A program made the translations under genes and the position numbers. The notes under the pieces are model-generated. The model saw only the letters and a list, made by a program, of their open reading frames with translations, was not told the DNA's origin and searched no databases. Shown in pieces: positions 10,419-64,000 of a DNA stretch of 64,000 nt (positions are counted from its first letter, which is position 1; each line of letters starts with the position of its first letter). This stretch comes from Gammaproteobacteria bacterium (GTDB lineage: Bacteria > Pseudomonadota > Gammaproteobacteria > UBA4575): the NCBI GenBank assembly GCA_965243395.1, contig CBDEUS010000002.1, positions 672,001-736,000 of the forward strand, read 5' to 3'.

Positions 10419-12301
10419 TGTCTTATAAAACGATTGTCGAAGACAACATTGATATTCTAGTAGCGGGTGCTGGCATGGCCGGTACGGGTGCTGCATTTGA
10501 AGCGCGGTACTGGGGTCAAGATAAAAAAATAGTCATTGCCGAAAAGGCAAATATCGATCGTTCTGGCGCAGTCGCGCAAGGACTTTATGCTATCAATACA
10601 TACATGGGTACGCGCTTCGGTGAAAATAATCCTGAAGATCACGTGCGCTATGCACGCATCGATTTGATGGGGATAGTTCGCGAAGATTTATTATTTGATA
10701 TGGCCCGTCACGTAGATTCTGCGGTACATCAATTCGAAGAATGGGGTTTACCGTTAATGCGTAATCCCAAGACAGGCGCTTATCAACGTGAAGGTCGATG
10801 GCAGATCATGATTCATGGTGAGTCCTACAAGCCAATCGTTGCAAATGCTGCAAAAAAATCTGCGAGTGAAGTTTTCAATCGTATCTGTGTAACACATTTT
10901 TTAATGGATGAATCAAAAGAAAATCGTGTTGCAGGAGCGGTAGGTTTCAACGTGCGTACTGGTAACTACCATGTATTCAAAGCTAAAACTGTTATTTGTG
11001 CTGCCGGCGGTGCTTCCAATATTTACAAGCCTCGTTCAGTAGGTGAAGGTGCGGGTCGTGTTTGGTATGCGCCATGGTCGTCAGGCTCTGCGTATGGGTT
11101 GATGATTGGTGCGGGTGCCAAGATGACACAAATGGAAAATCGCATTGTGTTGGCGCGTTTCAAAGATGGTTACGGTCCTGTAGGTGCGTATTTTTTGCAC
11201 CTCAAAACGTATACGCAAAACGGCCTTGGCGAAGAGTATGAATCAAAGTGGTGGCCTTCTACTCAGGAATTGGTAGGTAAGGAATACTTAGATCCGGAAG
11301 TTTCGCATAGAACGCATCGTCCTATTCCAACGTGTTTACGCAACCATGCATTTATCTCAGAAGTGAATGCTGGTCGTGGACCTATTCACATGGTTACCAT
11401 GGAAGCCTTCCAAGATCCTCATCTAGAAGAAATTGGTTGGCATAACTTCTTAGGAATGACAGTCGGTCAAGCGGTACTCTGGGCTGCTACTGATGTGGAT
11501 CCTAAGTATGAGAACCCCGAACTTACAACTTCTGAACCTTATGTAATGGGTTCACATGCTACGGGCTGCGGAGCATGGGTTTCTGGTCCTGAAGATCTAT
11601 CTCCCCCCGAGTATTTCTGGGGTTACAACCGTATGACTACTGTTGAAGGGTTATTTGGTGCAGGAGATGCTGCAGGTGGTACACCGCATGCATTCTCATC
11701 GGGTTCTTTTACCGAAGGTCGTTTAGCTGCCAAAGCTGCGTGTAGGTATATCGATGATGGTAAGGCAGAAGGGATCACAGTTTCTCAAGATCAAATTGAT
11801 CGACGTAAAGCTGAGATATATAAACCAATGGAGCACTACAAGATTTACCGCAATGAAATCACAGCAGGTAGTGTTAACCCTAATTACATTAATCCGCGAC
11901 AAGGACTTGATCGCTTGCAAAAGCTAATGGATGAGTATGGTGGTGGTGTAACGGTAAATTACATGACCAATGAAAAATTACTCAACATAGGATTAAAGAA
12001 AATTAAAACTTTGGAAGAAGATCTTGAGAAAATTGCTGCAGAAGATATTCATGAGTTACTTCGCGCATGGGAATTGAAGCATCGAACAATGGCTTCTGAA
12101 GCTGTATTGCAACATACGTTGTTCCGCAAAGAGACACGCTGGCCTGGTTATTATTATCGTGGCGACTTCATGAAAGTAGATGATCAAAACTGGCATGTAT
12201 TAACGGTTTCACGACGTGATCCGGAAACAGGTGAATACACCATGGAGAAAGCGCCATGCTATCACCTGGTCGGTGATGAAGAAAAACAAGCAGCGGCTTA
12301 A
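10418..12301 (+). CDS. aprA: Adenylylsulfate reductase alpha subunit
   Basis: RSGAVAQGL, WQIMIHGESYK, FSSGSFTEGR and ETRWPGYYYR; coupled to aprB by TAATG. Confidence 0.97.
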   Translation: MSYKTIVEDNIDILVAGAGMAGTGAAFEARYWGQDKKIVIAEKANIDRSGAVAQGLYAINTYMGTRFGENNPEDHVRYARIDLMGIVREDLLFDMARHVDSAVHQFEEWGLPLMRNPKTGAYQREGRWQIMIHGESYKPIVANAAKKSASEVFNRICVTHFLMDESKENRVAGAVGFNVRTGNYHVFKAKTVICAAGGASNIYKPRSVGEGAGRVWYAPWSSGSAYGLMIGAGAKMTQMENRIVLARFKDGYGPVGAYFLHLKTYTQNGLGEEYESKWWPSTQELVGKEYLDPEVSHRTHRPIPTCLRNHAFISEVNAGRGPIHMVTMEAFQDPHLEEIGWHNFLGMTVGQAVLWAATDVDPKYENPELTTSEPYVMGSHATGCGAWVSGPEDLSPPEYFWGYNRMTTVEGLFGAGDAAGGTPHAFSSGSFTEGRLAAKAACRYIDDGKAEGITVSQDQIDRRKAEIYKPMEHYKIYRNEITAGSVNPNYINPRQGLDRLQKLMDEYGGGVTVNYMTNEKLLNIGLKKIKTLEEDLEKIAAEDIHELLRAWELKHRTMASEAVLQHTLFRKETRWPGYYYRGDFMKVDDQNWHVLTVSRRDPETGEYTMEKAPCYHLVGDEEKQAAA

Positions 12302-49437: not shown

Positions 49438-50412
49438 TTATTGTTTAAAACGGCGATCTTGTTTTACACGATCGAGAATTAAATAAAGTTCACTAATGGT
49501 TTGTATGTAGTTTGCTTGGATTTCTTGAAGTACATCAAAGTAAGCAGCTGTTCCACTTCCCGTTACAACAATTTCAATACTATTGTTTAATTCTCGGCGT
49601 AGCTTGCGTAATTGATTTGGTAATAATGGATCATCAGCGGGTCGTGTTATACCAATCGCTACTAATTGTGCATCGCTTTGTTGTTGAGCAAAGATTATTT
49701 CGTCTACCGTTCCATACATACCTAAAAATATTGCATCCCAACCGTTTGATTTGCTAGCAGCAGCTAAGCGCAAGGCTGCAATATCACTTACAGGTCCCGC
49801 AGGTGAAGCGCAGATTAATTTATATTCAGATTCAACAAAGGGTTCATTCATAACCAAGTTTGAGAGAAATGCCCGTATAGAATAAATAGCTATTGCATAA
49901 TGAGTATCACGTAAGGCGCCGCGGCGACATTCGTCCTGAATGTGCGAAACCAGTGGTCGTAGCAAGTCTTCTAATAAAAAAATAATGCCTAACGATTTTG
50001 ATGCATCGCTAAGCGAATGATAAATGTCGTAACTATTGAACCGTTGTACTGCATCTAAACAGTCATCGAAATATTCCATCACGGATCCCGTGCTGGGACG
50101 CTGTTCTATTTTTGCGAGTGGTAAACGCGCTGCTGCGGATTCATCTTTATCAACTAACTCACGAAGTTTATCCATGGGTAAACTCGCAACATCGCCAATT
50201 CGACGCCCTGCTGAGGTCGCGCGCCGCAGCATAATAAGTTTTTCAACGTCACTATCGCTATACAATCTTCGAGCGTTACTGGCTCTTTCTGGTGTGACTA
50301 CTCCATAACGACGTTCCCACACACGTATGACATCCGCCGTAAGTCCGGTACGTCTGGCGACTACTTGAATGGGGTGCTCATGCACTAAAACGTTTGTCTG
50401 TTTGCCTGCCAC
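49438..50412 (-). CDS. MerR-family regulator with degenerate cobalamin-binding domains (CarH/LitR-like)
   Basis: MerR HTH (IRVWERRYGVVTPER…RLYS), then a four-helix bundle and a Rossmann-like domain (ICASPAG…IFLG). Confidence 0.82.
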   Translation of the reverse strand: MAGKQTNVLVHEHPIQVVARRTGLTADVIRVWERRYGVVTPERASNARRLYSDSDVEKLIMLRRATSAGRRIGDVASLPMDKLRELVDKDESAAARLPLAKIEQRPSTGSVMEYFDDCLDAVQRFNSYDIYHSLSDASKSLGIIFLLEDLLRPLVSHIQDECRRGALRDTHYAIAIYSIRAFLSNLVMNEPFVESEYKLICASPAGPVSDIAALRLAAASKSNGWDAIFLGMYGTVDEIIFAQQQSDAQLVAIGITRPADDPLLPNQLRKLRRELNNSIEIVVTGSGTAAYFDVLQEIQANYIQTISELYLILDRVKQDRRFKQ

Positions 50413-50689: not shown

Positions 50690-50706
50690 ATGAACTAGGA
50701 GCGAAC

Positions 50707-51855
50707 ATGAAGAAACTATTAATCAACGCGCGCTATTTTTTAGCCCCGTTTTTAATATTAGCGAGTTTATTCGGTGTATTAGCGGGGGGTCCATGGGTAT
50801 GGACCGGCGTATTACTACTGGGACTGGGTATCATCATAGACACCCTGACAACAGCACAAACACCCGGCGCGGGATTTGACGAAAACGGCGACACCAACGG
50901 CATCGTGCCCTTACTGAATGGCACCATGTACGGCATGCTGGCGGTATTTGTCCTTTTGCAACTGGCCCTTGCCTGGCGCATCTGGCAATACACCAACGGC
51001 GTCCCTGTTGTACCGGGGGGTGAAACCATCCTGGGCCTTGCGGTTCAAGACGGCATCACCGGCAGCCAACTTGTAGGCGCAGTACTATCCACCGGCATCT
51101 TTGCCGGCATCGGCATCATCTACGGACACGAACTGGCGCACACCAAAGGCTTCAGCTTCGTGATTGCGCGCTGGATGATGGCATTAAGTGGCAAAGCCCA
51201 CTTCTGCTACGCGCACGTATACAACCACCACCTAGAACTCGGTCACCAAGACGACCCAGCGACCGCGCCACGCGGGCGCAGCATGTACGCCCACTACCCA
51301 CTATCCGGGTTGGGGCAAAGCAAATTCCTCTTCATGATGGAAAAACAACGTCTTGAAAGACTAGGAGTACCCTTCCTATCCTGGCAAAACCGCTGGATCC
51401 GAGGCTACTTCATGGCATTGCCAACCGTACTTCTGTTCTGGTTCGTAGGCGGCTGGCTTGGCATGCTCTGCTTAGCGGGCGTATGGCTGATCTCCAACTT
51501 CGAACTCGAAGTCCTCAACTACCTTGAGCACTACGGATTGATTCGCGAGAAAGGCCAACCGATTGACTACCGTCATAGCTGGGACAACTCCACCGCGTTT
51601 ACCAGCTGGTTCTTTATCGAGATTGGTCGCCAGGCCGACCATCACGATCGCGGCGAGACCCACTTTTGGGAACTCGACGAAGTGGGTGCACCGAACTGCG
51701 GACGCGGCTACTTCACCCTGTTTGCATTAGGCTTATTGCCACCGGTGTTTCATGCCTACATGAAGCAACAGTTGGCGAAGTGGGATGACGAGATGGCCTC
51801 TGAGGGCGAACTTAAGATCGCGGATCAGATGAATAAACAGGCCGGGTACGCTTAA
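50707..51855 (+). CDS. AlkB/XylM-family integral-membrane non-heme di-iron monooxygenase
   Basis: HELAH, HVYNHH, NYLEHYG and RQADHH boxes, TM segments, XylM-like C-terminus; AGGAG RBS. Confidence 0.88.
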   Translation: MKKLLINARYFLAPFLILASLFGVLAGGPWVWTGVLLLGLGIIIDTLTTAQTPGAGFDENGDTNGIVPLLNGTMYGMLAVFVLLQLALAWRIWQYTNGVPVVPGGETILGLAVQDGITGSQLVGAVLSTGIFAGIGIIYGHELAHTKGFSFVIARWMMALSGKAHFCYAHVYNHHLELGHQDDPATAPRGRSMYAHYPLSGLGQSKFLFMMEKQRLERLGVPFLSWQNRWIRGYFMALPTVLLFWFVGGWLGMLCLAGVWLISNFELEVLNYLEHYGLIREKGQPIDYRHSWDNSTAFTSWFFIEIGRQADHHDRGETHFWELDEVGAPNCGRGYFTLFALGLLPPVFHAYMKQQLAKWDDEMASEGELKIADQMNKQAGYA

Positions 51856-51965: not shown

Positions 51966-52691
51966 ATGGTTGAAAAGTTTGATCCCCAAAAAAATATGAC
52001 TAGGCAAGAATCATTAACTGATTCAGTAAGTTCGTTACAGTCGGGAGATGAACGTGCGTGGTTTGAAAATGAGCTTATAAAATTTCAACAACAATTACGT
52101 GATTTACCAAATCAGGCGAGTAACCTTGAACGTGCCAAACTTGAACTTGAGATAGCTGAAGTATTTATCGGCTTAAATCGTTTAAATGATGCGTGGGAAA
52201 GTGCACGACCACTTGTTGAAATATTTATTGTCGAGCAAGAATTCGAATTTGCTGTGCGAACGTGTCGAGTGCTATATCAAGCTAACCATGAATTATCGAT
52301 CGCTGCATTGGGACAGGGATGTTGGTTAGCGGTAACGTATCCAATAAATCCAACTTTATCAATTGAGATGTTGCATAACATTGTCGATGAAACTCCTGAC
52401 AATTCTGACGGTGCTGCTGTTGCTGCGATGGCAGCACAATACATTGCTGATATGCGTGGTGCAGAAGATCGTGAAAATTTAATGTTTCTTACCACTCAAA
52501 TTGTAGCTAAGGTTGCTAAACGTCATCGAAATATTGAGGATGAAGAATCTATCAAAATATGGATTGAGATTTTAGAACTCAATGATACGGACCAGTTATT
52601 CACACGCTTAGCAAAAGTTATTGACGCCATAACAGCAGATAACTGGTGGTTTAACCGAGACGAACTTCGAGCGCAATTACCTGTTAATTAA
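51966..52691 (+). CDS. Hypothetical alpha-helical protein
   Basis: 241-aa ORF with helical composition. No recognised family. Confidence 0.72.
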   Translation: MVEKFDPQKNMTRQESLTDSVSSLQSGDERAWFENELIKFQQQLRDLPNQASNLERAKLELEIAEVFIGLNRLNDAWESARPLVEIFIVEQEFEFAVRTCRVLYQANHELSIAALGQGCWLAVTYPINPTLSIEMLHNIVDETPDNSDGAAVAAMAAQYIADMRGAEDRENLMFLTTQIVAKVAKRHRNIEDEESIKIWIEILELNDTDQLFTRLAKVIDAITADNWWFNRDELRAQLPVN

Positions 52692-52732: not shown

Positions 52733-52855
52733 CCACTAGTCCACTAATCCCCTCCATTTACGCAAATTCGGCGGTTTTTACTGCGAATTTATAGCTATAT
52801 CTCATTATTGAGAGAGCGATTTCTGTACATTAATCGCACTGAGAGTTGGACTTTT

Positions 52856-53410
52856 ATGGAGAGCGTGGTGAGCAGACCAGCACAAGAGGTTGGCTTCACC
52901 CTAATTGAGTTAATGATTGTCGTGGTAATCGTGGCAATTTTTGTAACTGTGGGTGTGCCAAATTTTCGAAACTTGATAAGTGATAATCGCTTAGCAACAC
53001 AAGCGAATCGCCTTGTATCGTCTTTGCAATTGGCGCGTTCTGAAGCTCTTAAGTTACGAACTCCTGTTTCTGTATGTCGTTCAACGAATGGCTCTTCATG
53101 TGCAGGGGCTGGAAATTGGGAAACAGGTTGGTTGGTTTTTGTAGATACAAATGGCAACGGTGACGTTGATGGGGAACGAATTTTGTTAGCTAACGCTGCG
53201 CTGAGTGGCAGTAACACACTTCGTGCTACAGCTGCCCCCTTTACAGATTTCATAAATTATCAACCGAATGGTTTGCAAAGCACAACCAATATTGCCACGT
53301 ACAGAATTTGTGATGGAAACAATCCTGATGTTGATCAAGGTCGGCAAATAACAGTTTCAACTACAGGGCGAGTTCAGACAGATCGCGGTGGTTTAGCCGC
53401 TTGTCCTTAA
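52856..53410 (+). CDS. fimT: FimT/FimU (GspH-like) minor pilin
   Basis: G|FTLIELM prepilin site, ARSEA and GWLVF. ATG 52856 is the likely start. Confidence 0.88.
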   Translation: MESVVSRPAQEVGFTLIELMIVVVIVAIFVTVGVPNFRNLISDNRLATQANRLVSSLQLARSEALKLRTPVSVCRSTNGSSCAGAGNWETGWLVFVDTNGNGDVDGERILLANAALSGSNTLRATAAPFTDFINYQPNGLQSTTNIATYRICDGNNPDVDQGRQITVSTTGRVQTDRGGLAACP

Positions 53411-53430
53411 GTTAATAAGGCAAATATTTT

Positions 53431-54042
53431 ATGAATAACAGTGTAAAAACTTTTACCAAGCCACAACATAAAAAATTTATGTCTGGGTTATCTTTAATTG
53501 AGATATTAGTAACGGTAGTTGTGTTGTCAATTGGTTTGTTGGGCATAGCGGGAATGCAGGCATTTGGTATGCGTTACAGTCATGATTCTTATGCACGTAG
53601 TCAAGCAACTATGTTAGCGAACGAATTAATTGAACGTATGCATGCTAATCCAGATGCAGTCGCAAATGGTGATTACGATGATGCAGATAACAATGCTGCA
53701 ATTAATTGTAATAGCGTAACGAATGATCCTGCACATGTATCCAATCCAGCACCTGCGTGTATGGGTACAGAGGTTTGTACTGTTACGGAATTAGCACAAC
53801 TCGATGTGTTTAGAGCAAAGTGTGGACAATTCTTGGCTGGACCTGGTGCACTTGTTGGTGGCGCAGCAAATTTATTACCAAATGGAAATCTAGCAATAAC
53901 ATGTACAGATTCCAGCGTAGGTGTTGCACCCGCATGCGAAGGGGATAACACACGTACTGTTACCGTTAGTTGGCAAGATCCAGATCAAAAGGGTGACGCA
54001 ACACAGACGTTGCAAGTTCAAGTTAATGCGAGATTCCTATAA
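53431..54042 (+). CDS. pilV: Type IV minor pilin PilV
   Basis: G|LSLIEILV, GLLGIAGMQ, RSQATMLA and ERMHAN. Confidence 0.9.
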   Translation: MNNSVKTFTKPQHKKFMSGLSLIEILVTVVVLSIGLLGIAGMQAFGMRYSHDSYARSQATMLANELIERMHANPDAVANGDYDDADNNAAINCNSVTNDPAHVSNPAPACMGTEVCTVTELAQLDVFRAKCGQFLAGPGALVGGAANLLPNGNLAITCTDSSVGVAPACEGDNTRTVTVSWQDPDQKGDATQTLQVQVNARFL

Positions 54043-54044
54043 AT

Positions 54045-54800
54045 ATGAATAATGTAAATATACATAAGCAATTTGGTCTCTCAATTGTTGAATTGATGAT
54101 CGCATTAGCATTGTCATTAGTTGTAATGCTAATCACGACAAGTATCTATGTAAGCAATAAACAAACGTATCGATTTTTGGACCAATATAGTCTGCTACAG
54201 GAAAATGGACGTTTTGCAATTTTCTTTTTACGTGAGCATATTTTACAGGCTGGTTTTCCACGCCAGTCAAATGTAAATCCGTTTCCAGTTGTGCCGGGTA
54301 ACAATACAGGTACAAACGGAAGTGACACGATAACAGTGCAATTTAGATCTGCTGTAGATTGTTTAAATGATGTACCTGCTGGTGCATTACCGTTGAGACT
54401 TACTCAGAACACGTTTCAGTTAAGTGCAAATAATGAATTGACATGCAATGGAAATGGCCTTGTGGGTGGCGTAGACCAACCTGCGCAAGCTTTAGTTGAT
54501 GGAATTGTAAATTTACAAGCTGAATACGGTGTGGATACGGATGCAGATGGAATTGCGAACAGCTATGCAAATTCTACTGTTGTTGAAGCTGGAACAATTG
54601 GGGGTGCCGGTCCGGATTGGGACAATGTCGTTTCTATACGTGTTGCTGTGCTGGTTGAAGGCGAGCCAAATACTTTAGATCAACCTCAAGCGATAACTTA
54701 TAACTTATTAGGCGTTCCAGACGCGTATAACGATCGCACACCAAGGCGTGTTTTCACAACAACCATTCCTTTGCGTAATCGCAATAAGACAATTATTTAG
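54045..54800 (+). CDS. pilW: Type IV minor pilin PilW
   Basis: G|LSIVELMIA, LQENGRFA, YGVDTDADG and FTTTIPLRN. Confidence 0.9.
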   Translation: MNNVNIHKQFGLSIVELMIALALSLVVMLITTSIYVSNKQTYRFLDQYSLLQENGRFAIFFLREHILQAGFPRQSNVNPFPVVPGNNTGTNGSDTITVQFRSAVDCLNDVPAGALPLRLTQNTFQLSANNELTCNGNGLVGGVDQPAQALVDGIVNLQAEYGVDTDADGIANSYANSTVVEAGTIGGAGPDWDNVVSIRVAVLVEGEPNTLDQPQAITYNLLGVPDAYNDRTPRRVFTTTIPLRNRNKTII

Positions 54801-55325
54801 GTGGTAATCATGTTGAATTCAATTAGTAAACAAAATGGTGTTGTTTTAGTTGTTGGTTTGTTGATGTTGCTTGTCATTACGATCGTTGGTGTAACGGCAA
54901 TGAGTGACACCACGATGAATGAAAGAATGACATCAAATCATCAGTTTCAAACTTTAAGTTTTCAAGCTGCAGAATCGGCCATTCACGATAATTTTAACAT
55001 ACCATCGGTTTCACCATCTGTTACCGCAGTGAATTGGTTTATTGATCCTGCACCAACAAACTATAACGTAGATATCAAGAGTGGTACTCCGTTAGGTGTA
55101 CAAGCAGACGCCAGCATTCAATTTTGTGGTGAAGAATTACCTATGGGTTCAGGTTTTTGCAATGGTCTTTCAGCTGGTTGTGATATCGACCAGGTTTTTG
55201 ATGTTACGGGTGAAGGGCAAGTGAGTGCGCTCGGCACTCAAGAGCAACATTTACGTAGGGGAGCACGTGCCATGCTTAGTGCAGGGTTAGCATTTGATAC
55301 AACGAAATGTGATCAGGTGCCATAA
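54801..55325 (+). CDS. pilX: Type IV minor pilin PilX
   Basis: QNG|VVLVVGL (no Glu5), ERM..N and FQAAESA. Confidence 0.88.
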   Translation: MVIMLNSISKQNGVVLVVGLLMLLVITIVGVTAMSDTTMNERMTSNHQFQTLSFQAAESAIHDNFNIPSVSPSVTAVNWFIDPAPTNYNVDIKSGTPLGVQADASIQFCGEELPMGSGFCNGLSAGCDIDQVFDVTGEGQVSALGTQEQHLRRGARAMLSAGLAFDTTKCDQVP

Positions 55326-55346
55326 ATCAAATAAAAGGATTTTTTT

Positions 55347-58300
55347 ATGATATTTATTAATGAGAGTTGGAATTTTATGAAAACGTTAACACAGAAAGTT
55401 AGTTTGCTTGCGTTTGTAAGCACAATTGTATTTATTAGTGGTTTTACAAACGTCTTTGCAGAAGACATAGAGATTTATGATCGCATTCAAACAGAACCTA
55501 ATGTTCTGTTTATTCTCGATCAATCTGAAAGTATGTTAGAGCTTGTTGGAAGCACAGGCTTAACTCGTGATCAAATTGTTAAGCAGGCATTTCAACAAGT
55601 CATGAGCCAAACATACAACAACCTTAATGTAGGGTTTATGGATTATGGTCGCAATAATGGTGCAGGTGTAGATCTTCCCGTTGCAGATGTTAACGAGCTT
55701 GCAAGAAATATTGAACCTAATGTTGTGAGCACTACCGAGACTTATGCATCAATGTTAAGTCGGTTTGTTGCAAATGTAGAAGGCCCTCAACCCAATGCAA
55801 AAACGGCAACTGTCGAAGCACTATTGGAAGCTGCCAAGTATTATCGTGGAGAAATTCTAGACAATAAAAGCCAGGGTTACCAAGGTCCTCCAGGTATATG
55901 GAATGATGGTGACTCCGATTATTGGGATTCTGTTACTGGTTCCGGAAATTCTCACTGGCGTGCTGCGGGTCCTCGCACATACTCAGGTGGTAGTTGGCAA
56001 TCTTCAAGTACACCAGGGCCTTATGGACCAACTTGTAAAACGACAAACATAGCAGGAGTATCACTACCTGTTTGTACTAATCCTTGGCCAGGTAGTTGTT
56101 GGAATGTGCCTTATCAACCACCGGTAAATAATCCATTTGTTCCGAGTCACCCTCATGGTTCTAAATGTATTGACCCACCTGGATACGGGTGTTTATTGTG
56201 GAATGTGGATAACACGGAGTGTGTAACATCGGGCTGCTTGGGTGGTACTGAACCTGCGTATTACCATACCCACGCAGCATCTACTACGCCTGAAGTGCCT
56301 GCACATACACGATGTAAAGAAACAGGTACATCAACTAGTACTGGTTTTAATGGAGATCGTTTCTATATCTCTCCGATTCAAACTGCATGCACCGAAAACT
56401 TTATTGTTTTGCTATCCGATGGCGGGCCAACTATTCTTGGTAATCACGAACAAACCTCGATAAAAAATATAGCGGGTATTTCATCATGTGAAAACTTGTC
56501 AGCGGCTGGTTTTAATGATCCTTCAATTCAACAAAAAGGTGTTTGTGGACCTGACTTAGTGAAAGCTTTAGCGAATGACGACCAAGCTTCTGGCGTCACG
56601 GGTATACAGACTATTAATACCTACACCGTTGGCTTTGATTTAGGAGCGGGTGCTTCAGAGGCAAAAGATTACCTACAGAAGCTAGCAACAGATGGCAATG
56701 GGCAATTTTTTGATGCAAATGGTGCTGGCGGTGTATCGGGCTTAGTAAATATTTTCCAAAATATTTTCAATTCCATTACACAAAAACCACTTACTGTGGC
56801 GCGTGTCGGATCGACTATTGATGTGAGTACATTGTCATCCAGTCGTGATGAGTTATATGTGCCTACGTTTGCAGCAGCGCCCGGTCAACCACGATGGCCT
56901 GGTAACTTAAAAGGCTACACGATGGATCCTGCGGGTTTCTTGAAAGGTCTGGATAATAATCCGGCATTTACGACCGCAGGAGATTTTAATCCTTCATCAA
57001 GAAGTTATTGGTCTGCATCTGCAGACGGCGGTAGCATTGAAAGCGGTGGTGTTGCGAGTCGATTATATCCATCAGTTCGAAATTTATATACTGATGATGG
57101 ACCAGGAACGTCACGAAGCTTTGAAGATTTGATCGCATCTAACTTTGATGAAAACGATGTTGCATTGTTTGGTTTAGTGTCTACTGGTGATGATGATGAT
57201 GATGAAGACATGGTACAAGAACATGTTGAATGGGTTCGTGGTGTGGATGTAGATGATGAAAATTCCGATGGTAGTAGCACTGACTCAAGGAATTTCATTG
57301 GTGATGCATTGCATACCGATCCAGTAGTTGCGAACTACGACGGATCTAAAACAGATCCTGTTGTGGGGGGTTCAATTGATCGTGTCGTTTACTTCATGAC
57401 TAATGAAGGTTTTATCCATGCGATTAATGTTACAGGAAACACTGATACGACCGGAGGTACTGAGTTATTTGCTTATATGCCGAGTGACTTGTTACCTAAT
57501 ACGGATCTTTTACGTAGAGATGTGGGTGGAGGTGCAAAAGTATATGGATTAGACGGCCCATTAACGTTACATCAAGTAGGTGGTCTGACAAATGTTGCAG
57601 GCAAGAAATATTTGTATTTTGGAATGCGACGCGGTGGCATGAATTATTATGCAATGGATGTAACCGATCCGCTTTCACCATCACTCATGTGGGTTATTGA
57701 GGGTGGTACAGGCGACTTCAAAGAAATGGCTCAGTCTTGGTCTAAACCAATTGTTACTAATGTAGATGTTGGTGGAACCAAAACATTAGCACTCGTGTTT
57801 GGTGGAGGTTACGATACTACACAGGACTCTGCGACAACTTATACTGCGGACATTCAAGGCCGCGCAATTTATATAGTTGACGCAATAACTGGAGACAAAA
57901 TTTGGTCTGCAGGACCAAACACTCTAACGCCTAATAGTCCAGATACACACAATTTAGATTTGGCATTAGCAAATGGTATCGCTGGTGATGTATCAGTAAT
58001 TGATTTGGATAATGATACTTATGCGGACCGAATTTATTTTGGTGATATAGGCGGTTCAATCTGGCGTATCGATATTCAAGGTGATTTAAATGGTTTGCCT
58101 GGATTTTTAAATGATTATTCAGGTTATGAATTTGCTAATTTACATGGCAACTCTACGACTGATAATAGACGCTTCTTTGGCAGACCTATTGCAGCCTTGA
58201 CACAAAACGGAAAGCTTGCGGTATCAATTGGATCAGGACATCGGTCCCATCCATTGGATCCGAATGTGCAAGATCGTTTTTATACGCTATATGATCCTAA

Positions 58301-58751
58301 TGTAAATGGTGTTCCAACTTCTGCACCTAGCGCTGTTACAGAAAGTAATCTGCAAGATATCACCGGATTCACATCTGGTTATACAAACTCATCAATGGCA
58401 GGCTGGAGATTTGATCTTGGAGTAGGTGAAAAAGTTTTCAATGAAGCGAGTGTTTTACGTGGAGAAATCTTTTTCAGTACTTATGTTCCACCAGCGACTG
58501 TATGTAGTAATGATCCAAATGGTTCAAGATTATTTGTCTTGGATCTCGAGGGTAATGCTTCAAGAGACTTAGATGGAGATGTAAGTAACGGTAAAGATTT
58601 CTTTATTACAGTAAATAATTTTGGAATACTTCCGAAGATGGCTCTTCATTATGGCTCAACAGGTCAAGTAAGGAGTGTATTTTTACCTAATGTTGGTAAT
58701 GTTTATTCAACTGGAATACTGGAAGATCGCTTCTGGACGAATAATCCTTAA
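55347..58751 (+). CDS. pilY1: Type IV pilus adhesin PilY1/PilC
   Basis: vWA-like DQSESM and LLSDG, and a C-terminal PilC beta-propeller (YGLDG, GMRRGG, FGGGYD, Ca-loop DLDNDTYAD). Confidence 0.9.
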   Translation: MIFINESWNFMKTLTQKVSLLAFVSTIVFISGFTNVFAEDIEIYDRIQTEPNVLFILDQSESMLELVGSTGLTRDQIVKQAFQQVMSQTYNNLNVGFMDYGRNNGAGVDLPVADVNELARNIEPNVVSTTETYASMLSRFVANVEGPQPNAKTATVEALLEAAKYYRGEILDNKSQGYQGPPGIWNDGDSDYWDSVTGSGNSHWRAAGPRTYSGGSWQSSSTPGPYGPTCKTTNIAGVSLPVCTNPWPGSCWNVPYQPPVNNPFVPSHPHGSKCIDPPGYGCLLWNVDNTECVTSGCLGGTEPAYYHTHAASTTPEVPAHTRCKETGTSTSTGFNGDRFYISPIQTACTENFIVLLSDGGPTILGNHEQTSIKNIAGISSCENLSAAGFNDPSIQQKGVCGPDLVKALANDDQASGVTGIQTINTYTVGFDLGAGASEAKDYLQKLATDGNGQFFDANGAGGVSGLVNIFQNIFNSITQKPLTVARVGSTIDVSTLSSSRDELYVPTFAAAPGQPRWPGNLKGYTMDPAGFLKGLDNNPAFTTAGDFNPSSRSYWSASADGGSIESGGVASRLYPSVRNLYTDDGPGTSRSFEDLIASNFDENDVALFGLVSTGDDDDDEDMVQEHVEWVRGVDVDDENSDGSSTDSRNFIGDALHTDPVVANYDGSKTDPVVGGSIDRVVYFMTNEGFIHAINVTGNTDTTGGTELFAYMPSDLLPNTDLLRRDVGGGAKVYGLDGPLTLHQVGGLTNVAGKKYLYFGMRRGGMNYYAMDVTDPLSPSLMWVIEGGTGDFKEMAQSWSKPIVTNVDVGGTKTLALVFGGGYDTTQDSATTYTADIQGRAIYIVDAITGDKIWSAGPNTLTPNSPDTHNLDLALANGIAGDVSVIDLDNDTYADRIYFGDIGGSIWRIDIQGDLNGLPGFLNDYSGYEFANLHGNSTTDNRRFFGRPIAALTQNGKLAVSIGSGHRSHPLDPNVQDRFYTLYDPNVNGVPTSAPSAVTESNLQDITGFTSGYTNSSMAGWRFDLGVGEKVFNEASVLRGEIFFSTYVPPATVCSNDPNGSRLFVLDLEGNASRDLDGDVSNGKDFFITVNNFGILPKMALHYGSTGQVRSVFLPNVGNVYSTGILEDRFWTNNP

Positions 58752-60689: not shown

Positions 60690-60830
60690 AGGCTTATCCT
60701 TGAATGTTTTTTATACGTCTAAATACCCTTACATAATATGTAGGTATAGATAAGTAAGCTAGTATTAATGCAGGTACGCCTTATATATTGTAGACAATGG
60801 GGCCTTGTAGTAATGTTTAACCTAAAGGAA

Positions 60831-60852
60831 GTGACACTTATATATATGTCAC
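60831..60852. promoter_or_regulatory. Inverted repeat upstream of the Mo enzyme gene
   Basis: GTGACA-N10-TGTCAC; a second dyad TACATA-A-TATGTA lies at 60730-60742. Confidence 0.45.
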
Positions 60853-60919: not shown

Positions 60920-63214
60920 ATGCAGACCGATAAAATTAAAGCGCCGGAAGGCCATTCCATTCACCATGTTACCTGTCCTCATGATTGTCCAGATTCATGT
61001 TCCATGTTGGTAACTCGCGATGATTCCACAGGGAAAGCCGTTCGTGTACAAGGTGATCCAACACACCCTATTACGCGTGGTTATTTATGCAATAAGGTGA
61101 ACCACTATCTTGATTTAGTCTACAACGACAATCGTGTTTTATACCCGCACAAGCGTGTGGGTCCAAAAGGTCCAGGCGCAAAGTTTGAACGCATCACTTG
61201 GGACGAAGCTTTGGATGCCATCACTGATAACTTTAAAGAGACTATTGAAAAATACGGACCCGAGGCCGTACAGCCATATTCTTATTCCGGCACCATGGGC
61301 ATGGTGGGGTATTGGACCATGGACTATCGCTTCTGGAACAAGATGCAAGCCGCAGGTTTAGTTCAGTCAATTTGTATTTATGCTGCCATGTGGGCCGATC
61401 TTCACACCTATGGATTGGCGCATCCAAACATGTCTGTGCACGAAGCAGCACAAGAAGCTGATTTAATGATTCTTTGGGGTGCTAATTTAGTCAGCACCGG
61501 TGTGCATGCAATACCATTCATTCGTGAAGCCAAAGAACGTGGTATGAAATTAATTGTAATCGACCCACGTGTCACACGTACCACAATGATGGCGGATTGG
61601 CACATCCAACCTAAACCGGGTACAGATGCAGCATTAGCACTAGGAATGATGAAAGTCATCGTTGATGCAGGTAAACATGATTTAGAGTTTCTTAAAGAAC
61701 AAACCAATGGTTGGGAAGCATTAATCGAAACTAAACTTCCAGATTACCCACTAGATAAAGTTGAAAAGATTACTGGAGTTCCTGCAGCAGACATCGAAAA
61801 ACTGGCATTGGAGTACGCATCAACTAAGAAATCATGTATTCGTGCAAACTATGGATTAAATCGTCACCAGAATGCCGGACAAATGTGTCGAGCAGTTTTG
61901 GTTCTTCCATGTATAACTGGGGCATTCCGTGAAAAATGTGGTGGCGTAAGTTTTGGCACCTTGAATGAGATGTGGTTCCGTTGCATGAGTGATGCATTGC
62001 ATCGCCCTGATTTAGGAACACGTGGGCGTGCAGTTAATATGGTGCAGATTGGTCGTGCATTATCGGAAAATATTGGCCCAGATGGTGAGCAAATGGATCC
62101 ACCAATTAAGAGTATCTTTGTTTATAACTCTGATCCTGCAAACTGTGCACCTAATACCAATGCCGTGCGTGAAGGCTTCATGCGCGATGATTTATTCGTT
62201 GGAGTGCATGAAACATTCTGGACCGATACCTGTAACTACGCCGACATTGTCATCCCTGCGGATACCCAACTGGAACGTATGGATATGGTGGCGACGTATG
62301 GTAATTGGTATTTCACTATGAATAAGCCTGTGATAGAGCCACTAGGTGAAAGTGTGCGTAATTCAGAATTATTCCGCATGTTAGCTAAGAAAATGGGCTA
62401 TGTTGAAGATGGAGATAACGCATTTACACAAACGGATGAAGAAATTATTCGTGATATCTTATGTGACAAAGGCGAATCAAACTTGCTAATGGAAGGCATT
62501 AAATACGAAGACTTTGAAAATGTTGGTTTTGTGCGCGCTAATACCGCAACCGATAGTCGCGACTGGATGAAAAACGGCTGGCCAACTCCATCAGGTAAAA
62601 TTGATATTTGGTGTGAAGCTCTAAAAGAAGAAGGCGTGGATCCTTTACCTACATATGTGCCTGAAATTGAAGGTCAAGAAGATCCCAAGCGCAAGAAATT
62701 TCCGCTACAAGTATTAAGCAGTGCTTCGCATTACTTTATTGGTGATTCATTCCAGTCTGTTCCGCGCTTACAAGCGATGATGTCTAGACCTACCGTTGAA
62801 CTTAATCCAAATGAAGCTGAAAAGCGCGGTTTGCAAGATGGTGATTTATGTCGCATCTATAATGACCGTGGTGAGACGTACGCCTACCTTGTAATTATTG
62901 AAGGTCATGTGGATGGAATATGCTCTACACAAAAGCAATTCAAGGGAAGTAACACTCCTGGCGGGGTAAATGTTAATGCTCTAAACACCGAAATGCTTAC
63001 TGATTTTGGTACAAGTCCGACTTTTTATTCTTGTTTGGCAGAAGTTGAGAAAGCCAGCGAGGATATGCGCAAGCAAGCATTGTTAAAAGAGTGGGGTGGT
63101 AAAAAAGGGTACATCCAAAAGTGGCGCGAAGACCCACGTAATCAAGATGTAGAAGCAAGTGATGATGAAATTATTGCGTTTGCTGAAAAGCAACACCCAG
63201 GAGTATTTAGTTAA
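60920..63214 (+). CDS. Cytoplasmic molybdopterin (Mo-bisPGD, DMSO reductase superfamily) oxidoreductase
   Basis: CPHDCPDSC…LCNK [4Fe-4S] motif, ITWDEAL, VIDPR, PGTDAALALG, YADIVIPA and YNDRGE; no Tat signal; GGAGG RBS. Confidence 0.9.
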   Translation: MQTDKIKAPEGHSIHHVTCPHDCPDSCSMLVTRDDSTGKAVRVQGDPTHPITRGYLCNKVNHYLDLVYNDNRVLYPHKRVGPKGPGAKFERITWDEALDAITDNFKETIEKYGPEAVQPYSYSGTMGMVGYWTMDYRFWNKMQAAGLVQSICIYAAMWADLHTYGLAHPNMSVHEAAQEADLMILWGANLVSTGVHAIPFIREAKERGMKLIVIDPRVTRTTMMADWHIQPKPGTDAALALGMMKVIVDAGKHDLEFLKEQTNGWEALIETKLPDYPLDKVEKITGVPAADIEKLALEYASTKKSCIRANYGLNRHQNAGQMCRAVLVLPCITGAFREKCGGVSFGTLNEMWFRCMSDALHRPDLGTRGRAVNMVQIGRALSENIGPDGEQMDPPIKSIFVYNSDPANCAPNTNAVREGFMRDDLFVGVHETFWTDTCNYADIVIPADTQLERMDMVATYGNWYFTMNKPVIEPLGESVRNSELFRMLAKKMGYVEDGDNAFTQTDEEIIRDILCDKGESNLLMEGIKYEDFENVGFVRANTATDSRDWMKNGWPTPSGKIDIWCEALKEEGVDPLPTYVPEIEGQEDPKRKKFPLQVLSSASHYFIGDSFQSVPRLQAMMSRPTVELNPNEAEKRGLQDGDLCRIYNDRGETYAYLVIIEGHVDGICSTQKQFKGSNTPGGVNVNALNTEMLTDFGTSPTFYSCLAEVEKASEDMRKQALLKEWGGKKGYIQKWREDPRNQDVEASDDEIIAFAEKQHPGVFS

Positions 63215-63283
63215 AGTACATTACTAAACAAATCAAACCCTCGTTGCTAAAAAATGAAAAGGATAAAAGAGGAGTAAAACAAA

Positions 63284-64000
63284 ATGGCGGCAGCACAAAA
63301 AAACTTTCACGACCCGTTTGATTTCTACATAAGGAAATTACCCGAACCCGACCGTGATATTCAAACAAAACGCGTAAGTGTAAGTAGTGGTGTAATCAAA
63401 AGTGTTGAAAATTTAACTTACGACACTTACAAAATTGTAATTAAGTGTAGTGATGATGCGCCTCAAATGGTTGCGACCGCGGGTCAATACGCGACCATCA
63501 AAGTTCCTGGTTGCAGAAAACCACGTTCTTATTCATTAGCGAAAGCACCTGAAAATGAAAACCCAGATGAACATACTTTTTTTATTCGCTTAGTGCATGG
63601 CGGCAAACTTTCAAGCTGGATTGCCGAAGGGAATCGTGAGGGCGAGCATGTGGTTATTTCAGGACCGCTTGGAAAATTCTCACTTGATAGTAGTAATAAA
63701 ACAATGGTCTGTATTGCCGGCGGTAGTGGCATGAGTGCTGTTAACGCTATTGTTGAACATGCATGTAATAAACAAGTTGAGCGTGACTGTTACTTTTTTT
63801 ATGGGGCGAGGACACAAGCTGACTTATATTTACAGGAAGAGATGCGAGAAATCGAACGCAAGTGGAATAAAAATTTTAGTTTTAAATTTATTCCAGTGTT
63901 ATCAGAGGAAGCAGAGGATAGTGATTGGGATGGTCCGCGCGGATTTGTAACAGAGCATTTTAAAGATGAATATTTAAATAAAGGTGTTGTTTCGGTTAAT
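63284..64000 (+). CDS. XylA-like FAD/NAD(P)H oxidoreductase, truncated by the window end
   Basis: Not in the ORF track. GAGGAG RBS, ATG 63284, open to the end of the window. Motifs AGQY, RSYS, GGKLSSW, GPLG, CIAGGSG, FFYGART and VLSEE…W.G.RGFVTE. Confidence 0.88.
   Translation, partial: MAAAQKNFHDPFDFYIRKLPEPDRDIQTKRVSVSSGVIKSVENLTYDTYKIVIKCSDDAPQMVATAGQYATIKVPGCRKPRSYSLAKAPENENPDEHTFFIRLVHGGKLSSWIAEGNREGEHVVISGPLGKFSLDSSNKTMVCIAGGSGMSAVNAIVEHACNKQVERDCYFFYGARTQADLYLQEEMREIERKWNKNFSFKFIPVLSEEAEDSDWDGPRGFVTEHFKDEYLNKGVVSVN

What the first reader, a model, noticed from the sequence alone, without database searches (positions are those of the whole stretch)
60920..64000. Mo-bisPGD enzyme followed by a ferredoxin-less XylA-like reductase (gene missing from the ORF track)
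Seen: a Tat-less Mo enzyme with a Cys at the probable Mo-ligand position (QSICIY), followed 69 bp later by a flavin reductase. Its segments SNKTMVCIAGGSG, ERDCYFFYGARTQADLY and FIPVLSEE…W.G.RGFVTE closely match my recollection of the xylene monooxygenase reductase XylA. Instead of an N-terminal [2Fe-2S] domain it has a short Cys-free leader. Known: Mo enzymes of this CPHDCPD group are mostly uncharacterised, and DMSO-reductase-family enzymes usually pair with a 4Fe-4S beta subunit. Inference: a novel NAD(P)H-coupled two-component Mo enzyme (for example a sulfoxide reductase), or the electron donor for the XylM-like enzyme about 11 kb upstream.
Basis: partly seen in the sequence, partly recalled or inferred. 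Interest (0 to 1): 0.8.

Follow-up and report, generated by a model that had tools for sequence, protein, structure and literature searches.

The report
Soluble molybdoenzyme with its own reductase
Two neighbouring genes encode a cytoplasmic molybdenum enzyme and a flavin/iron-sulfur protein that probably links it to NAD(P)H; the pair is real and strictly conserved in some marine bacteria, but its substrate is unknown.

Summary
A 764-aa Tat-less Mo/W-bisPGD enzyme lies at 60920-63214, and an FNR-type reductase starts 69 bp later at 63284.

"Ferredoxin-less" is an artefact of the window edge. The reductase gene continues 411 bp past the window. It codes for 375 aa and ends in a ferredoxin domain with eight invariant Cys, read as 2x[4Fe-4S].

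The Mo gene lies directly upstream on the same strand in 77 of 77 testable loci from public genomes, and in 5 of 5 sampled relatives.

The Mo protein passes no curated NCBIfam model (nitrate reductase, formate dehydrogenase, DmsA, BisC, PhsA all fail). Its predicted fold is about equally distant from all solved family members.

Most likely reading: a soluble two-subunit enzyme passing electrons NAD(P)H -> FAD -> 2x[4Fe-4S] -> [4Fe-4S] -> Mo. Substrate and direction are unknown.

The XylM-like gene has its own XylA-type partner with a 2Fe-2S domain. The two lie within about 2 kb in 13 of 16 genomes, and in this genome beside an identical gene copy on the other contig.

This scan has already described the same pair in three other genomes. 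I rate it an uncharacterised variant of a known enzyme plan, of moderate interest.

The parts
60788..60852 (+). Conserved upstream region of the Mo gene. It holds TTGTAGAC (60788-60795), the block CCTTGTAGTAATGT (60803-60816) and the palindrome GTGACA-N10-TGTCAC (60831-60852). I read it as a candidate own promoter plus operator.
   Evidence: Alignment of 12 upstream regions from close relatives shows near-invariant blocks. The exact palindrome occurs in 4 of 103 stored loci, each time 67-100 bp before the Mo start codon. The consensus scan called no sigma-70 promoter on the + strand here, so the promoter reading is inference.
60920..63214 (+). Catalytic subunit: a cytoplasmic Mo/W-bisPGD enzyme of 764 aa. 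It has [4Fe-4S] cluster Cys 19/23/27/57, Lys59 and the probable metal ligand Cys152. A helical C-terminal tail (about residues 714-764) is found in this clade.
   Evidence: Pfam domains. C19, C23, C27, C57, K59 and C152 are invariant in 84 family members. The AF2 model has pLDDT 94.6. Foldseek matches DMSO reductase, FDH, PcrA, acetylene hydratase and Nap structures. Cys152 aligns with the Cys of acetylene hydratase and FdhF in the profile alignment.
63215..63283 (+). A 69-bp spacer with the ribosome-binding site GAGGAG (63269-63274). No terminator-like site lies in it.
   Evidence: Sequence. The terminator scan finds nothing in the spacer.
63284..64000 (+). The first 239 of 375 codons of the electron-transfer subunit: leader, FAD-binding and NAD(P)H-binding domains of BenC/XylA/NqrF type. 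The gene continues to window-equivalent 64411. Its C-terminal 2x[4Fe-4S] domain and a hairpin terminator (window-equivalent 64471-64500) lie beyond the window, at L004:3340-3612 and L004:3672-3701.
50707..51855 (+). Context only: the AlkB/XylM-like membrane di-iron hydroxylase (FA_desaturase family). In relatives it lies 2-3 genes upstream of the pair. Here it is separated from the pair by a pilus gene cluster and dinB.
   Evidence: Pfam FA_desaturase E 6.4e-29. Synteny. The gene has a 100% identical copy on the other contig.
51966..52691 (+). Context only: a 241-aa protein of no known family that follows the AlkB-like gene. In some relatives it directly precedes the Mo gene.
   Evidence: No Pfam or NCBIfam hit. 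It is found upstream of the pair in 30 of 80 loci. The protein-atlas look-alikes are named 'hypothetical protein'.

Best explanation
The two genes form one operon for a soluble, cytoplasmic, two-subunit molybdenum (or tungsten) bis-pyranopterin enzyme.

The 375-aa subunit oxidises NAD(P)H at an FNR-type FAD module. NADH is the more likely cofactor by resemblance to NqrF, BenC and XylA (recalled). It passes single electrons through its C-terminal two-cluster ferredoxin domain to the N-terminal [4Fe-4S] cluster of the 764-aa subunit. From there they reach the Cys152-ligated Mo centre, where a small substrate is reduced. The chain could also run in reverse for a low-potential substrate.

Shown here:
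- the domain content of both proteins;
- conservation of all cluster and ligand residues;
- strict gene pairing.

Inferred:
- physical complex formation;
- the direction of electron flow;
- cluster type;
- the metal.

The substrate is unknown. It is most likely not nitrate or formate. The FNR module appears to derive from the XylA-type reductases of the same genomes, with the N-terminal 2Fe-2S domain lost and a C-terminal 4Fe-4S domain gained.
For: Pairing:
- The Mo gene is immediately upstream on the same strand in 5 of 5 class-sample genomes that hold a full-length reductase.
- The same holds in 77 of 80 genome-contig loci. The other 3 are cut by a contig end within 58 bp of the reductase start.
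- tblastn gaps are 0-108 bp, with many at 0-3 bp.
- Flanking genes differ between families, so only the pair is conserved.
- In the class sample the close Mo orthologues (72% identity or more) occupy 7 places in 6 of 401 genomes. Six of the 7 are followed by the reductase, and the next relatives drop to 40% or less.

Operon signals:
- There is a ribosome-binding site and no terminator in the spacer.
- A 13-pair hairpin plus T-run lies 60 nt after the reductase stop.
- A conserved upstream element sits before the Mo gene.

Cofactor sites:
- C19, C23, C27, C57, K59 and C152 are invariant in 84 sequences.
- The eight reductase Cys are invariant in 55 sequences.

Fold: the Mo subunit model has pLDDT 94.6 and TM about 0.75 to solved family members.

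FNR module:
- The best NCBIfam hits are AntC, BenC, MmoC and NqrF.
- It is 44-47% identical to the genome's own XylA-like reductase.

Complex prediction (Mo subunit plus reductase residues 272-375) gave weak support only. The median ipSAE was 0.40 (runs 0.40, 0.55, 0.27) and the best of 3 controls was 0.00. The runs agree in at least 77% of contacts and the partner pLDDT is at least 63. The tool states that a pass at 0.60 or under was reached by 18 of 157 solved complexes and by both of the 2 of 215 mismatched pairs that passed.
Against: - There are no expression data. No RNA run holds the locus.
- Complex prediction gave weak support only.
- The ferredoxin domain of the reductase model is poorly predicted, with pLDDT 53-71.
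- Cluster type rests on Cys motifs. The first motif is Cx2Cx2Cx8C, without the usual CP.
- A 79%-identical paralogue of the Mo enzyme on the other contig has no adjacent reductase. The relatives at 40% identity or less are also stand-alone genes with no redox partner beside them. So a dedicated reductase is not a general need of the family.
- Nothing fixes the substrate. Gene neighbours give no consistent hint.
- The pair is rare. It was found in 6 of 400 class-sample genomes and in none of 400 other phylum-sample genomes.
Confidence: 0.75

Rival explanations
1. The reductase is, alone or also, the electron donor of the AlkB/XylM-like membrane hydroxylase encoded 9 kb upstream.
For: - In the clade with Mo identity of 80% or more, the order CarH-like(-) | AlkB-like - 241-aa gene - [dinB] - Mo - reductase recurs on one strand. 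Of the 80 loci, the AlkB-like gene is seen in 19 and the 241-aa gene in 30.
- All 6 class-sample genomes with the pair also hold a 71-100% identical AlkB-like gene, against 10 of the other 394. These 6 genomes belong to only 3 families, so they are not independent.
- The FNR module is most like XylA-type reductases.
- Earlier scan note e1-1430792 describes a direct AlkB-Mo-reductase operon in another genome.
Against: - The AlkB-like gene's conserved neighbour is a XylA-type reductase. The two lie within about 2 kb in 13 of 16 genomes that hold the gene.
- In this genome that reductase, with an N-terminal plant-type 2Fe-2S domain, lies beside a 100% identical AlkB-like copy on the other contig.
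- Ten of the 16 AlkB-like genomes lack the Mo-reductase pair.
- The 38 loci with Mo identity of 77% or less show no close AlkB-like gene (one 33% match, downstream on the opposite strand, in L092) within the 5.7 kb upstream of the Mo gene, yet they keep the pair. In G052, G400 and G254 the nearest AlkB-like gene is 60-130 kb from the pair.
- The reductase is never separated from the Mo gene.
Confidence: 0.1
2. It is an NAD(P)H-dependent assimilatory nitrate reductase of Nas type with an unusual flavoprotein partner.
For: - It has the same logic as NasC/NasB and NasA/NasC: a cytoplasmic Cys-ligated Mo-bisPGD subunit with an N-terminal 4Fe-4S cluster and an NAD(P)H flavoprotein (recalled).
- The genome has no other candidate nitrate reductase among its 4 MopB proteins.
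Against: - The NasC equivalog scores 211.5 bits against a cut-off of 1100. Halo-NasA scores 123.6 against 1000.
- No NirB match passes its cut-off in this genome or in 5 relatives.
- The only NIR_SIR proteins of this genome are DsrA and DsrB, so nitrite would have no assimilatory sink.
Confidence: 0.04
3. The chain runs backwards. The Mo subunit oxidises a low-potential substrate such as sulfite, arsenite, formate or an aldehyde-like compound, and the FNR subunit reduces NAD(P)+, as in NAD-linked formate dehydrogenases.
For: - FNR modules and Fe-S chains are reversible (established knowledge).
- The hosts are sulfur oxidisers that make cytoplasmic sulfite. DsrAB passes its cut-offs and AprA is present.
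- Many loci come from records titled as sulfur-oxidising symbionts.
- With the family profile, the top solved match is a CO2-reductase FdhF.
Against: - For formate, the family lacks the His after the Cys and the Arg that FdhF has at the aligned positions (their hallmark role is recalled).
- The genome already has a canonical FdsA that passes its model (773 against 666 bits).
- For sulfite, this genome has AprA, so no pathway gap demands a new enzyme.
- There is no direct evidence for any substrate.
Confidence: 0.1
4. The Mo/W subunit is a non-redox hydratase like acetylene hydratase. The reductase only keeps or returns the metal to its active reduced state in an oxygen-exposed cell.
For: - Acetylene hydratase is the best single-sequence PDB match (E 1.6e-52) and second with the profile. 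It needs a reduced metal (recalled).
- The invariant CPHDCPD motif places acidic residues next to the cluster Cys. This is reminiscent of Asp13 of acetylene hydratase (recalled).
Against: - Identity to acetylene hydratase is only about 23%, and the fold match is no better than to redox enzymes.
- In the alignments the Asp is offset by one position.
- A permanently coupled, co-translated two-cluster reductase is a heavy investment for occasional reactivation.
Confidence: 0.05

Closest known systems
NAD(P)H-dependent assimilatory nitrate reductases (Bacillus NasB/NasC, Klebsiella NasC/NasA)
   Same: Soluble and cytoplasmic. The Mo-bisPGD subunit is Cys-ligated and has an N-terminal [4Fe-4S] cluster. 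A separate flavoprotein brings electrons from NAD(P)H.
   Different: The Mo subunit fails the NasC and NasA models by a wide margin. The partner here is an FNR-fold protein with a 2x[4Fe-4S] tail, not a pyridine-nucleotide-disulfide-type flavoprotein (recalled). No assimilatory nitrite reductase was found in the genome.
XylA / BenC / AntC / MmoC class reductases (ferredoxin-FNR fusions of oxygenase systems)
   Same: The FAD and NAD(P)H domains are homologous. They give the best NCBIfam hits and are 44-47% identical to the genome's own XylA-like protein.
   Different: The N-terminal plant-type 2Fe-2S domain is missing and a C-terminal two-cluster 4Fe-4S domain is added. All models score below their cut-offs (AntC 153 against 402, BenC 145 against 430). 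The partner is a molybdoenzyme, not a di-iron or Rieske oxygenase.
BoxA, the reductase of benzoyl-CoA oxygenase (recalled from the literature, not retrieved here)
   Same: As far as I recall, it is the described reductase that combines an FNR-like FAD/NADPH module with two [4Fe-4S] clusters in one chain.
   Different: By recall, BoxA has the ferredoxin domain at the N-terminus and serves a di-iron epoxidase. No BoxA-like model appeared among the 25 NCBIfam families shown of 26.
NAD+-dependent formate dehydrogenases (FdsABG, FdhF-type) and acetylene hydratase
   Same: They are soluble cytoplasmic Mo/W-bisPGD enzymes with a Cys or SeCys ligand and an N-terminal cluster. They are the top solved matches.
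   Different: Identity is only 20-23%. The Fdh-alpha model scores 247.7 against 666. The residues aligned to the FDH His and Arg differ. The diaphorase here is FNR-type, not NuoE/F-type. The genome has its own FdsA with a NuoF-like partner.
Stand-alone 'molybdopterin oxidoreductase family' proteins of about 670-730 aa carrying the CPHDCPD motif (named automatically 'RSc2859 family'; by recall CDD MopB_3)
   Same: Same family. Members are 30-42% identical with all cofactor residues shared. None is characterised, as far as my searches show.
   Different: They have no adjacent reductase and no C-terminal helical tail.

Membership tests
Mo/W-bisPGD (DMSO reductase / MopB) superfamily | Molybdopterin and Molydop_binding domains, and the four-domain fold | tested here: met
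   PF00384 scores 138.7 bits and PF01568 49.3 bits, both over their cut-offs. The AF2 model has pLDDT 94.6. Foldseek gives E about 1e-46 and TM about 0.75 to DMSOR, FDH, PcrA, AH and Nap.
Mo/W-bisPGD (DMSO reductase / MopB) superfamily | N-terminal four-Cys [4Fe-4S] site and a protein ligand to the metal | tested here: met
   PF04879 scores 44.3 bits. C19, C23, C27, C57 and C152 are invariant in 84 sequences. C152 aligns with the Cys of acetylene hydratase and FdhF. Metal binding itself is not testable here.
Assimilatory nitrate reductase (NasA/NasC/NarB) | Passes the curated equivalog model | tested here: not met
   NF047855 scores 211.5 against 1100. NF041323 scores 123.6 against 1000.
Assimilatory nitrate reductase (NasA/NasC/NarB) | Assimilatory nitrite reductase present in the same genome | tested here: not met
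   NirB model: no match over its cut-off in the own genome or in 5 relatives. The only NIR_SIR proteins are DsrA and DsrB. NirA-specific models were not searched.
Formate dehydrogenase alpha subunits | Passes the Fdh-alpha model, with His next to the (Se)Cys and the active-site Arg | tested here: not met
   TIGR01591 scores 247.7 against 666.25. In the profile alignment, FdhF has C-H where the family has C-[s/I], and the FdhF Arg of PLRGQNN faces a non-basic column. The hallmark status of these residues is recalled.
S-/N-oxide reductases (DmsA/YnfE, DorA/TorA, BisC) | Passes the subfamily models and has a Ser ligand | tested here: not met
   TIGR02166 scores 266 against 777.7, TIGR00509 scores 204 against 1017.55 and TorA scores 135 against 909. 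The ligand position holds an invariant Cys. The Ser rule is recalled.
Acetylene hydratase | Close sequence kinship and the catalytic Asp next to the second cluster Cys | tested here: inconclusive
   It is the best phmmer PDB hit (181.8 bits) but only about 23% identical. In the alignments the AH Asp faces Pro24, and an Asp follows one position later. No AH model was available to score against.
XylA/BenC-type oxygenase reductases | FNR-type FAD and NAD(P)H domains | tested here: met
   PF00970 and PF00175 are over their cut-offs. The model's FNR part has pLDDT around 90 or more.
XylA/BenC-type oxygenase reductases | N-terminal plant-type [2Fe-2S] ferredoxin domain, and passing the equivalog models | tested here: not met
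   There is no Cys in residues 1-55, and matches start at about model position 100. AntC scores 153.4 against 402 and BenC 145 against 430. The genome's real XylA-like protein (L006:5734-6813) has the domain.
Two-cluster (2x[4Fe-4S]) bacterial-type ferredoxin domain | Two CxxCxxC...C motifs and a Fer4 profile match | tested here: met
   PF00037 gives E 3.7e-10 at residues 339-360. The dicluster model PF12838 scores 26.7 bits against a cut-off of 27. Eight Cys are invariant in 55 sequences. The first motif is atypical (Cx2Cx2Cx8C, no CP), so one cluster could differ in type. The domain's model confidence is low.

The most novel reading that the evidence does not exclude
The pair is an add-on to the AlkB-like/XylA-like oxygenase system of these marine sulfur-oxidising and methylotrophic bacteria. 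On this reading the reductase arose by duplication of the neighbouring XylA-type gene, swapping its 2Fe-2S head for a 4Fe-4S tail. The Mo enzyme acts on the same still-unknown small substrate or on its product, for example an oxidised methyl-sulfur compound such as DMSO or dimethylsulfone. NADH-dependent reductase activities for these compounds were reported in methylotrophs without genes being assigned (recalled). That would define a new three-enzyme pathway and the first NAD(P)H-driven soluble enzyme of this MopB branch.
Probability: 0.15. Interest if true: 0.75.

Novelty: new variant of a known kind. Interest (0 to 1): 0.5.

Why it matters
The MopB branch that carries the CPHDCPD motif is large. 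The representative library holds 1,878 clusters at E 1e-30 or better. I found no characterised member in my searches.

Here, unlike in most of the family, the enzyme comes with a built-in NAD(P)H-linked partner. That makes it directly assayable with a soluble physiological-type donor instead of artificial dyes. It is therefore a practical entry point for finding the substrate of the whole branch.

The hosts are abundant uncultured marine and sponge-associated sulfur oxidisers. A new cytoplasmic Mo reaction there could bear on marine sulfur or C1 cycling.

The FNR-(4Fe-4S)2 fusion is also a neat case of electron-transfer modules being re-tooled from an oxygenase reductase.

Tried and rejected
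- RNA evidence: the look-up of sequencing runs listed no RNA holder, only four DNA-type runs from one study. Read laying was therefore not used, and nothing can be said about expression.
- Names of homologues: the listing of cluster members could not be run because the database was switched off, so source names for the 40%-identity relatives were not obtained.
- Protein atlas: it gave only generic names for the Mo enzyme and 'hypothetical protein' for the 241-aa neighbour.
- A conserved third gene: clustering ORFs from 81 loci gave only lineage-local synteny. These were TraB/GumN in 40 loci, dinB in 29 and the 241-aa gene in 27-30. A YeeE/TsuA-like transporter and a SoxY-like gene flank the pair in G400 only. 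I did not treat them as partners.
- A sulfite-oxidation gap: I looked for missing AprA or SoeA. AprA is present in the own genome, G150 and G052, and absent in G317 and G254, so there is no consistent gap.
- The C-terminal tail as a docking element: it is present in most paired Mo proteins. In 9 of 77 loci, however, the match stops at residue 721, and the tail-bearing paralogue has no adjacent reductase. I rejected it as a rule.
- Reductase model: the ferredoxin tail was too poorly predicted to analyse.
- Literature: searches found no paper on this pair or this MopB branch. I read passages by 'find' in PMC10100899, PMC9751292, PMC13524816 and PMC13352529. PMC13524816 only lists MopB_3 (CD02766) as a clade label. 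One search failed on term syntax and was re-sent with other terms.
- Phylum sample: a search of 400 further genomes found no other reductase at E 1e-60 or better.


Full report
WHAT IS THERE

The window is G000:C2:672001-736000. An ORF at 60920-63214 (+) codes for 764 aa with the three Pfam domains of Mo/W-bisPGD enzymes: Molybdop_Fe4S4, Molybdopterin and Molydop_binding. Its N-terminus has no twin-arginine leader, and the first cluster Cys is residue 19, so the protein is cytoplasmic (read from the sequence).

After a 69-bp spacer with a GAGGAG ribosome-binding site, a second ORF starts at 63284 and runs off the window. I fetched the rest from the same genome. The gene is 375 codons long and ends 411 bp beyond the window.

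Pfam finds FAD_binding_6 and NAD_binding_1, and in the last 90 residues a Fer4-type domain. That domain has eight Cys in two motifs: C289-x2-C292-x2-C295-x8-C304 and C345-x2-C348-x2-C351-x3-C355-P. All eight are invariant in 55 homologues.

The 'ferredoxin-less' character is an artefact of the window edge. The Fe-S domain is at the other end of the protein and is of 4Fe-4S type, not 2Fe-2S.

IS THE PAIRING MORE THAN CHANCE?

A sample of 400 scored genomes of the same class holds a full-length reductase in 6 genomes, this one included. In all 5 others the Mo gene lies immediately upstream on the same strand.

A scan of species-representative genomes returned 80 loci with a full-length reductase at 52-95% identity. 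Of these, 77 have the Mo gene (66-98% identity) directly upstream on the same strand, with tblastn gaps of 0-108 bp. In the other 3 the contig ends within 58 bp of the reductase start.

Close Mo orthologues occupy 7 places in 6 of 401 class-sample genomes. After them, identity drops abruptly from 72% to 40% or less (that tally includes one genome flagged unpublished, G296, which I do not otherwise use). The only close copy without a reductase is a 79%-identical paralogue on this genome's other contig.

Genes flanking the pair differ between families. The unit of conservation is therefore the two genes.

A strong hairpin plus T-run follows the reductase stop by 60 nt, and no terminator-like site lies in the spacer.

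Upstream of the Mo gene, 12 close relatives share near-invariant blocks and a GTGACA-N10-TGTCAC palindrome. This suggests an own regulated promoter, separate from dinB. That is inference, because the consensus scan called no promoter there.

The record titles show uncultured marine Gammaproteobacteria. Many are labelled Thiotrichales, Candidatus Porisulfidus or Candidatus Oxydemutatoraceae. One reductase homologue is named from Hyphomicrobium methylovorum. In a phylum-wide sample of 400 other genomes no further carrier appeared.

WHAT KIND OF MO ENZYME?

No NCBIfam model is passed:
- dmsA_ynfE scores 266 against 777.7 bits.
- Fdh-alpha scores 247.7 against 666.
- NasC scores 211.5 against 1100.
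- bisC_fam scores 204 against 1017.
- PhsA scores 164 against 694.

By single sequence, the best solved relative is acetylene hydratase (E 1.6e-52). With a profile of 84 family members the top matches are nearly tied: FdhF of the CO2 reductase at 386 bits, acetylene hydratase at 383 and an archaeal formate dehydrogenase at 381.

The AlphaFold model is confident (pLDDT 94.6). Foldseek places it about equally far (TM about 0.75, 20-23% identity) from DMSO reductase, TorA, formate dehydrogenases, perchlorate reductase, acetylene hydratase and Nap.

The representative library shows a large family of mostly 670-730-aa proteins at 30-42% identity, with 1,878 clusters at E 1e-30 or better. In 84 aligned members C19, C23, C27, C57, K59, R72, C152, D236, P446 and E452 are invariant. 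C152 aligns with the metal-ligand Cys of acetylene hydratase and with the Cys of FdhF.

At the positions where FdhF has His after the Cys and the Arg of PLRGQNN, the family has other residues (the hallmark role of these residues is recalled).

The seven 36-39%-identical relatives whose neighbourhoods I annotated are stand-alone genes with no redox partner next to them.

Most paired proteins carry an extra helical C-terminal tail of about 50 residues. In 9 of 77 loci, however, the match ends at residue 721.

RULING OUT THE OBVIOUS FUNCTIONS

The genome has four MopB proteins:
- a canonical NAD-type formate dehydrogenase alpha subunit, which scores 773 bits against a cut-off of 666 and lies beside a NuoF-like gene and H4MPT-pathway genes;
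- NuoG;
- the two paralogues.

No NirB passes its cut-off in this genome or in five carriers. The only siroheme-type proteins here are DsrA and DsrB. Nitrate assimilation would therefore have no nitrite sink.

AprA is present, inside this window at about 10451-12271. The host is thus a sulfur oxidiser with C1-oxidation genes, and no pathway gap points to the Mo enzyme.

THE XylM QUESTION

The XylM/AlkB-like gene at 50707-51855 belongs to the FA_desaturase family. It is 100% identical over 1152 bp to a copy on the other contig. A GST-like gene follows that copy, then a 359-aa reductase with an N-terminal plant-type 2Fe-2S domain. That reductase is a true XylA/BenC-type protein.

Across the class sample the AlkB-like gene (58-100% identity) is found in 16 of 400 genomes. 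In 13 of these a XylA-type reductase match lies within about 2 kb of it. Ten of the 16 lack the Mo-reductase pair. The hydroxylase therefore has its own donor.

Two observations nevertheless link the systems:
- All 6 carriers of the pair also carry the AlkB-like gene. They belong to only 3 families, so they are not independent.
- In the clade closest to this genome the order is CarH-like(-) | AlkB-like - 241-aa gene - [dinB] - Mo - reductase. Of the 80 loci, the AlkB-like gene is visible in 19 and the 241-aa gene in 30. No close copy of either gene is seen in the 38 loci with Mo identity of 77% or less; only L092 has a 33% AlkB-like match, downstream on the opposite strand.

In this genome a pilus gene cluster and dinB have come between them.

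The FNR module of the Mo-linked reductase is 44-47% identical to the XylA-type protein. This fits an origin by duplication and domain exchange.

MECHANISM

The most economical reading is a soluble heterodimer-type enzyme with the path NAD(P)H -> FAD -> two [4Fe-4S] -> [4Fe-4S] of the Mo subunit -> Mo(Cys152) -> substrate.

Complex prediction of the Mo subunit with reductase residues 272-375 gave weak support only:
- The median ipSAE was 0.40 over runs of 0.40, 0.55 and 0.27.
- The best of 3 controls scored 0.00.
- At least 77% of contacts were shared between runs, and the partner pLDDT was at least 63.
- By the tool's calibration, passes at 0.60 or under were reached by 18 of 157 solved complexes and by both of the 2 of 215 mismatches that passed.

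The reductase model is confident for the FNR part and poor for the ferredoxin tail. Direction, metal, cluster types and substrate are all inferred or unknown.

EARLIER NOTES OF THIS SCAN

Three earlier reports on other genomes describe the same pair:
- e1-1517251: soluble NAD(P)H-linked pair, substrate unknown.
- e1-1523957: a YeeE neighbour, judged incidental.
- e1-1430792: an AlkB-like gene in one operon with the pair.

My results agree with the first two. I too saw a YeeE/TsuA-like gene beside the pair in one genome only. My results qualify the third: the AlkB linkage is real in one clade, but the hydroxylase's conserved partner is the XylA-type reductase.

LITERATURE

Searches found no paper on this pair or this MopB branch. 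I read only passages returned by 'find' in PMC10100899, PMC9751292, PMC13524816 and PMC13352529. None treats this branch beyond a clade label. BoxA and the NADH-dependent DMSO and dimethylsulfone reductase activities of methylotrophs are cited from memory only.

VERDICT

This is a real, strictly conserved two-gene module: a new variant of the known plan 'Mo-bisPGD subunit plus NAD(P)H flavoprotein', with an unusual FNR-(4Fe-4S)2 partner and an unknown substrate. The claimed oddity of a missing ferredoxin domain is not real. Interest is moderate, and the scan has already seen the pair elsewhere.

Noticed in passing
window 50704-51855 and G000:C1:559375-560526: The AlkB/XylM-like gene is duplicated at 100% identity over exactly 1152 bp, essentially the CDS alone, on the two contigs. 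A third copy at 61% protein identity lies at C2:664848-665999. GC is 0.46-0.52 around this gene, against about 0.40 in the surroundings. Gene conversion, recent duplication or an assembly effect could all explain it.
   Followed up: partly
class-sample genomes, e.g. G312:C2:69630-73374 and G187:C1:365111-368618; own L006:3364-6813: A highly conserved AlkB-like hydroxylase (58-86% identity across families, including 1.1-Mb genomes) lies within about 2 kb of a XylA-type reductase in 13 of 16 genomes. Here a GST-like gene sits between them. The substrate of this widespread marine oxygenase system is unknown to me.
   Followed up: partly
L005:4240-6988 (G000:C1:62239-64987): A paralogue of the Mo enzyme (766 aa, 79% identical, with the C-terminal tail) has no reductase next to it. 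An ArsR-family regulator lies divergently upstream, and the perfect palindrome TTGTATATACAA lies next to that regulator's start codon, in the sequence that separates the two genes. The ten residues after the Cys ligand differ strongly (CIYAAMWADLH against CTYAATEATTQ) while the flanks are conserved. This suggests a changed substrate pocket.
   Followed up: partly
window 51966-52691: A 241-aa protein with no Pfam or NCBIfam match follows the AlkB-like gene and in some relatives directly precedes the Mo gene (for example L047, L054, L045). It is predicted-helical by eye, and its atlas look-alikes are unnamed or weakly TPR-like. It might be a maturation or scaffold factor.
   Followed up: partly
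window 49438-50412 (-): A MerR-type regulator with a B12-binding domain (weak CarH-like hits) lies divergent to the AlkB-like gene. The same arrangement is seen in 6 related loci, which hints at light- or cobalamin-dependent control of the oxygenase.
   Followed up: no
window 52808-58751: A run of small proteins with prepilin-type N-termini is followed by a 1134-aa PilY1-like protein. This looks like a type IV pilus minor-pilin cluster, and it sits where relatives have the AlkB-like cluster next to the Mo pair. The reading comes from the sequences only and was not checked against families.
   Followed up: no
window about 10451-12271; G000:C2:818552-820949; G000:C1:643000-655000: The host carries AprA (in this window), DsrAB, an NAD-type formate dehydrogenase with a NuoF-like subunit, and H4MPT-linked C1 genes (fhcA/C/D). 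This points to a sulfur oxidiser with C1-oxidation capacity and no assimilatory siroheme reductase.
   Followed up: partly
window 60788-60852: Conserved non-coding blocks and a GTGACA-N10-TGTCAC palindrome lie 67-100 bp before the Mo start codon in this and related genomes. This is a candidate operator whose binding protein is unknown.
   Followed up: partly
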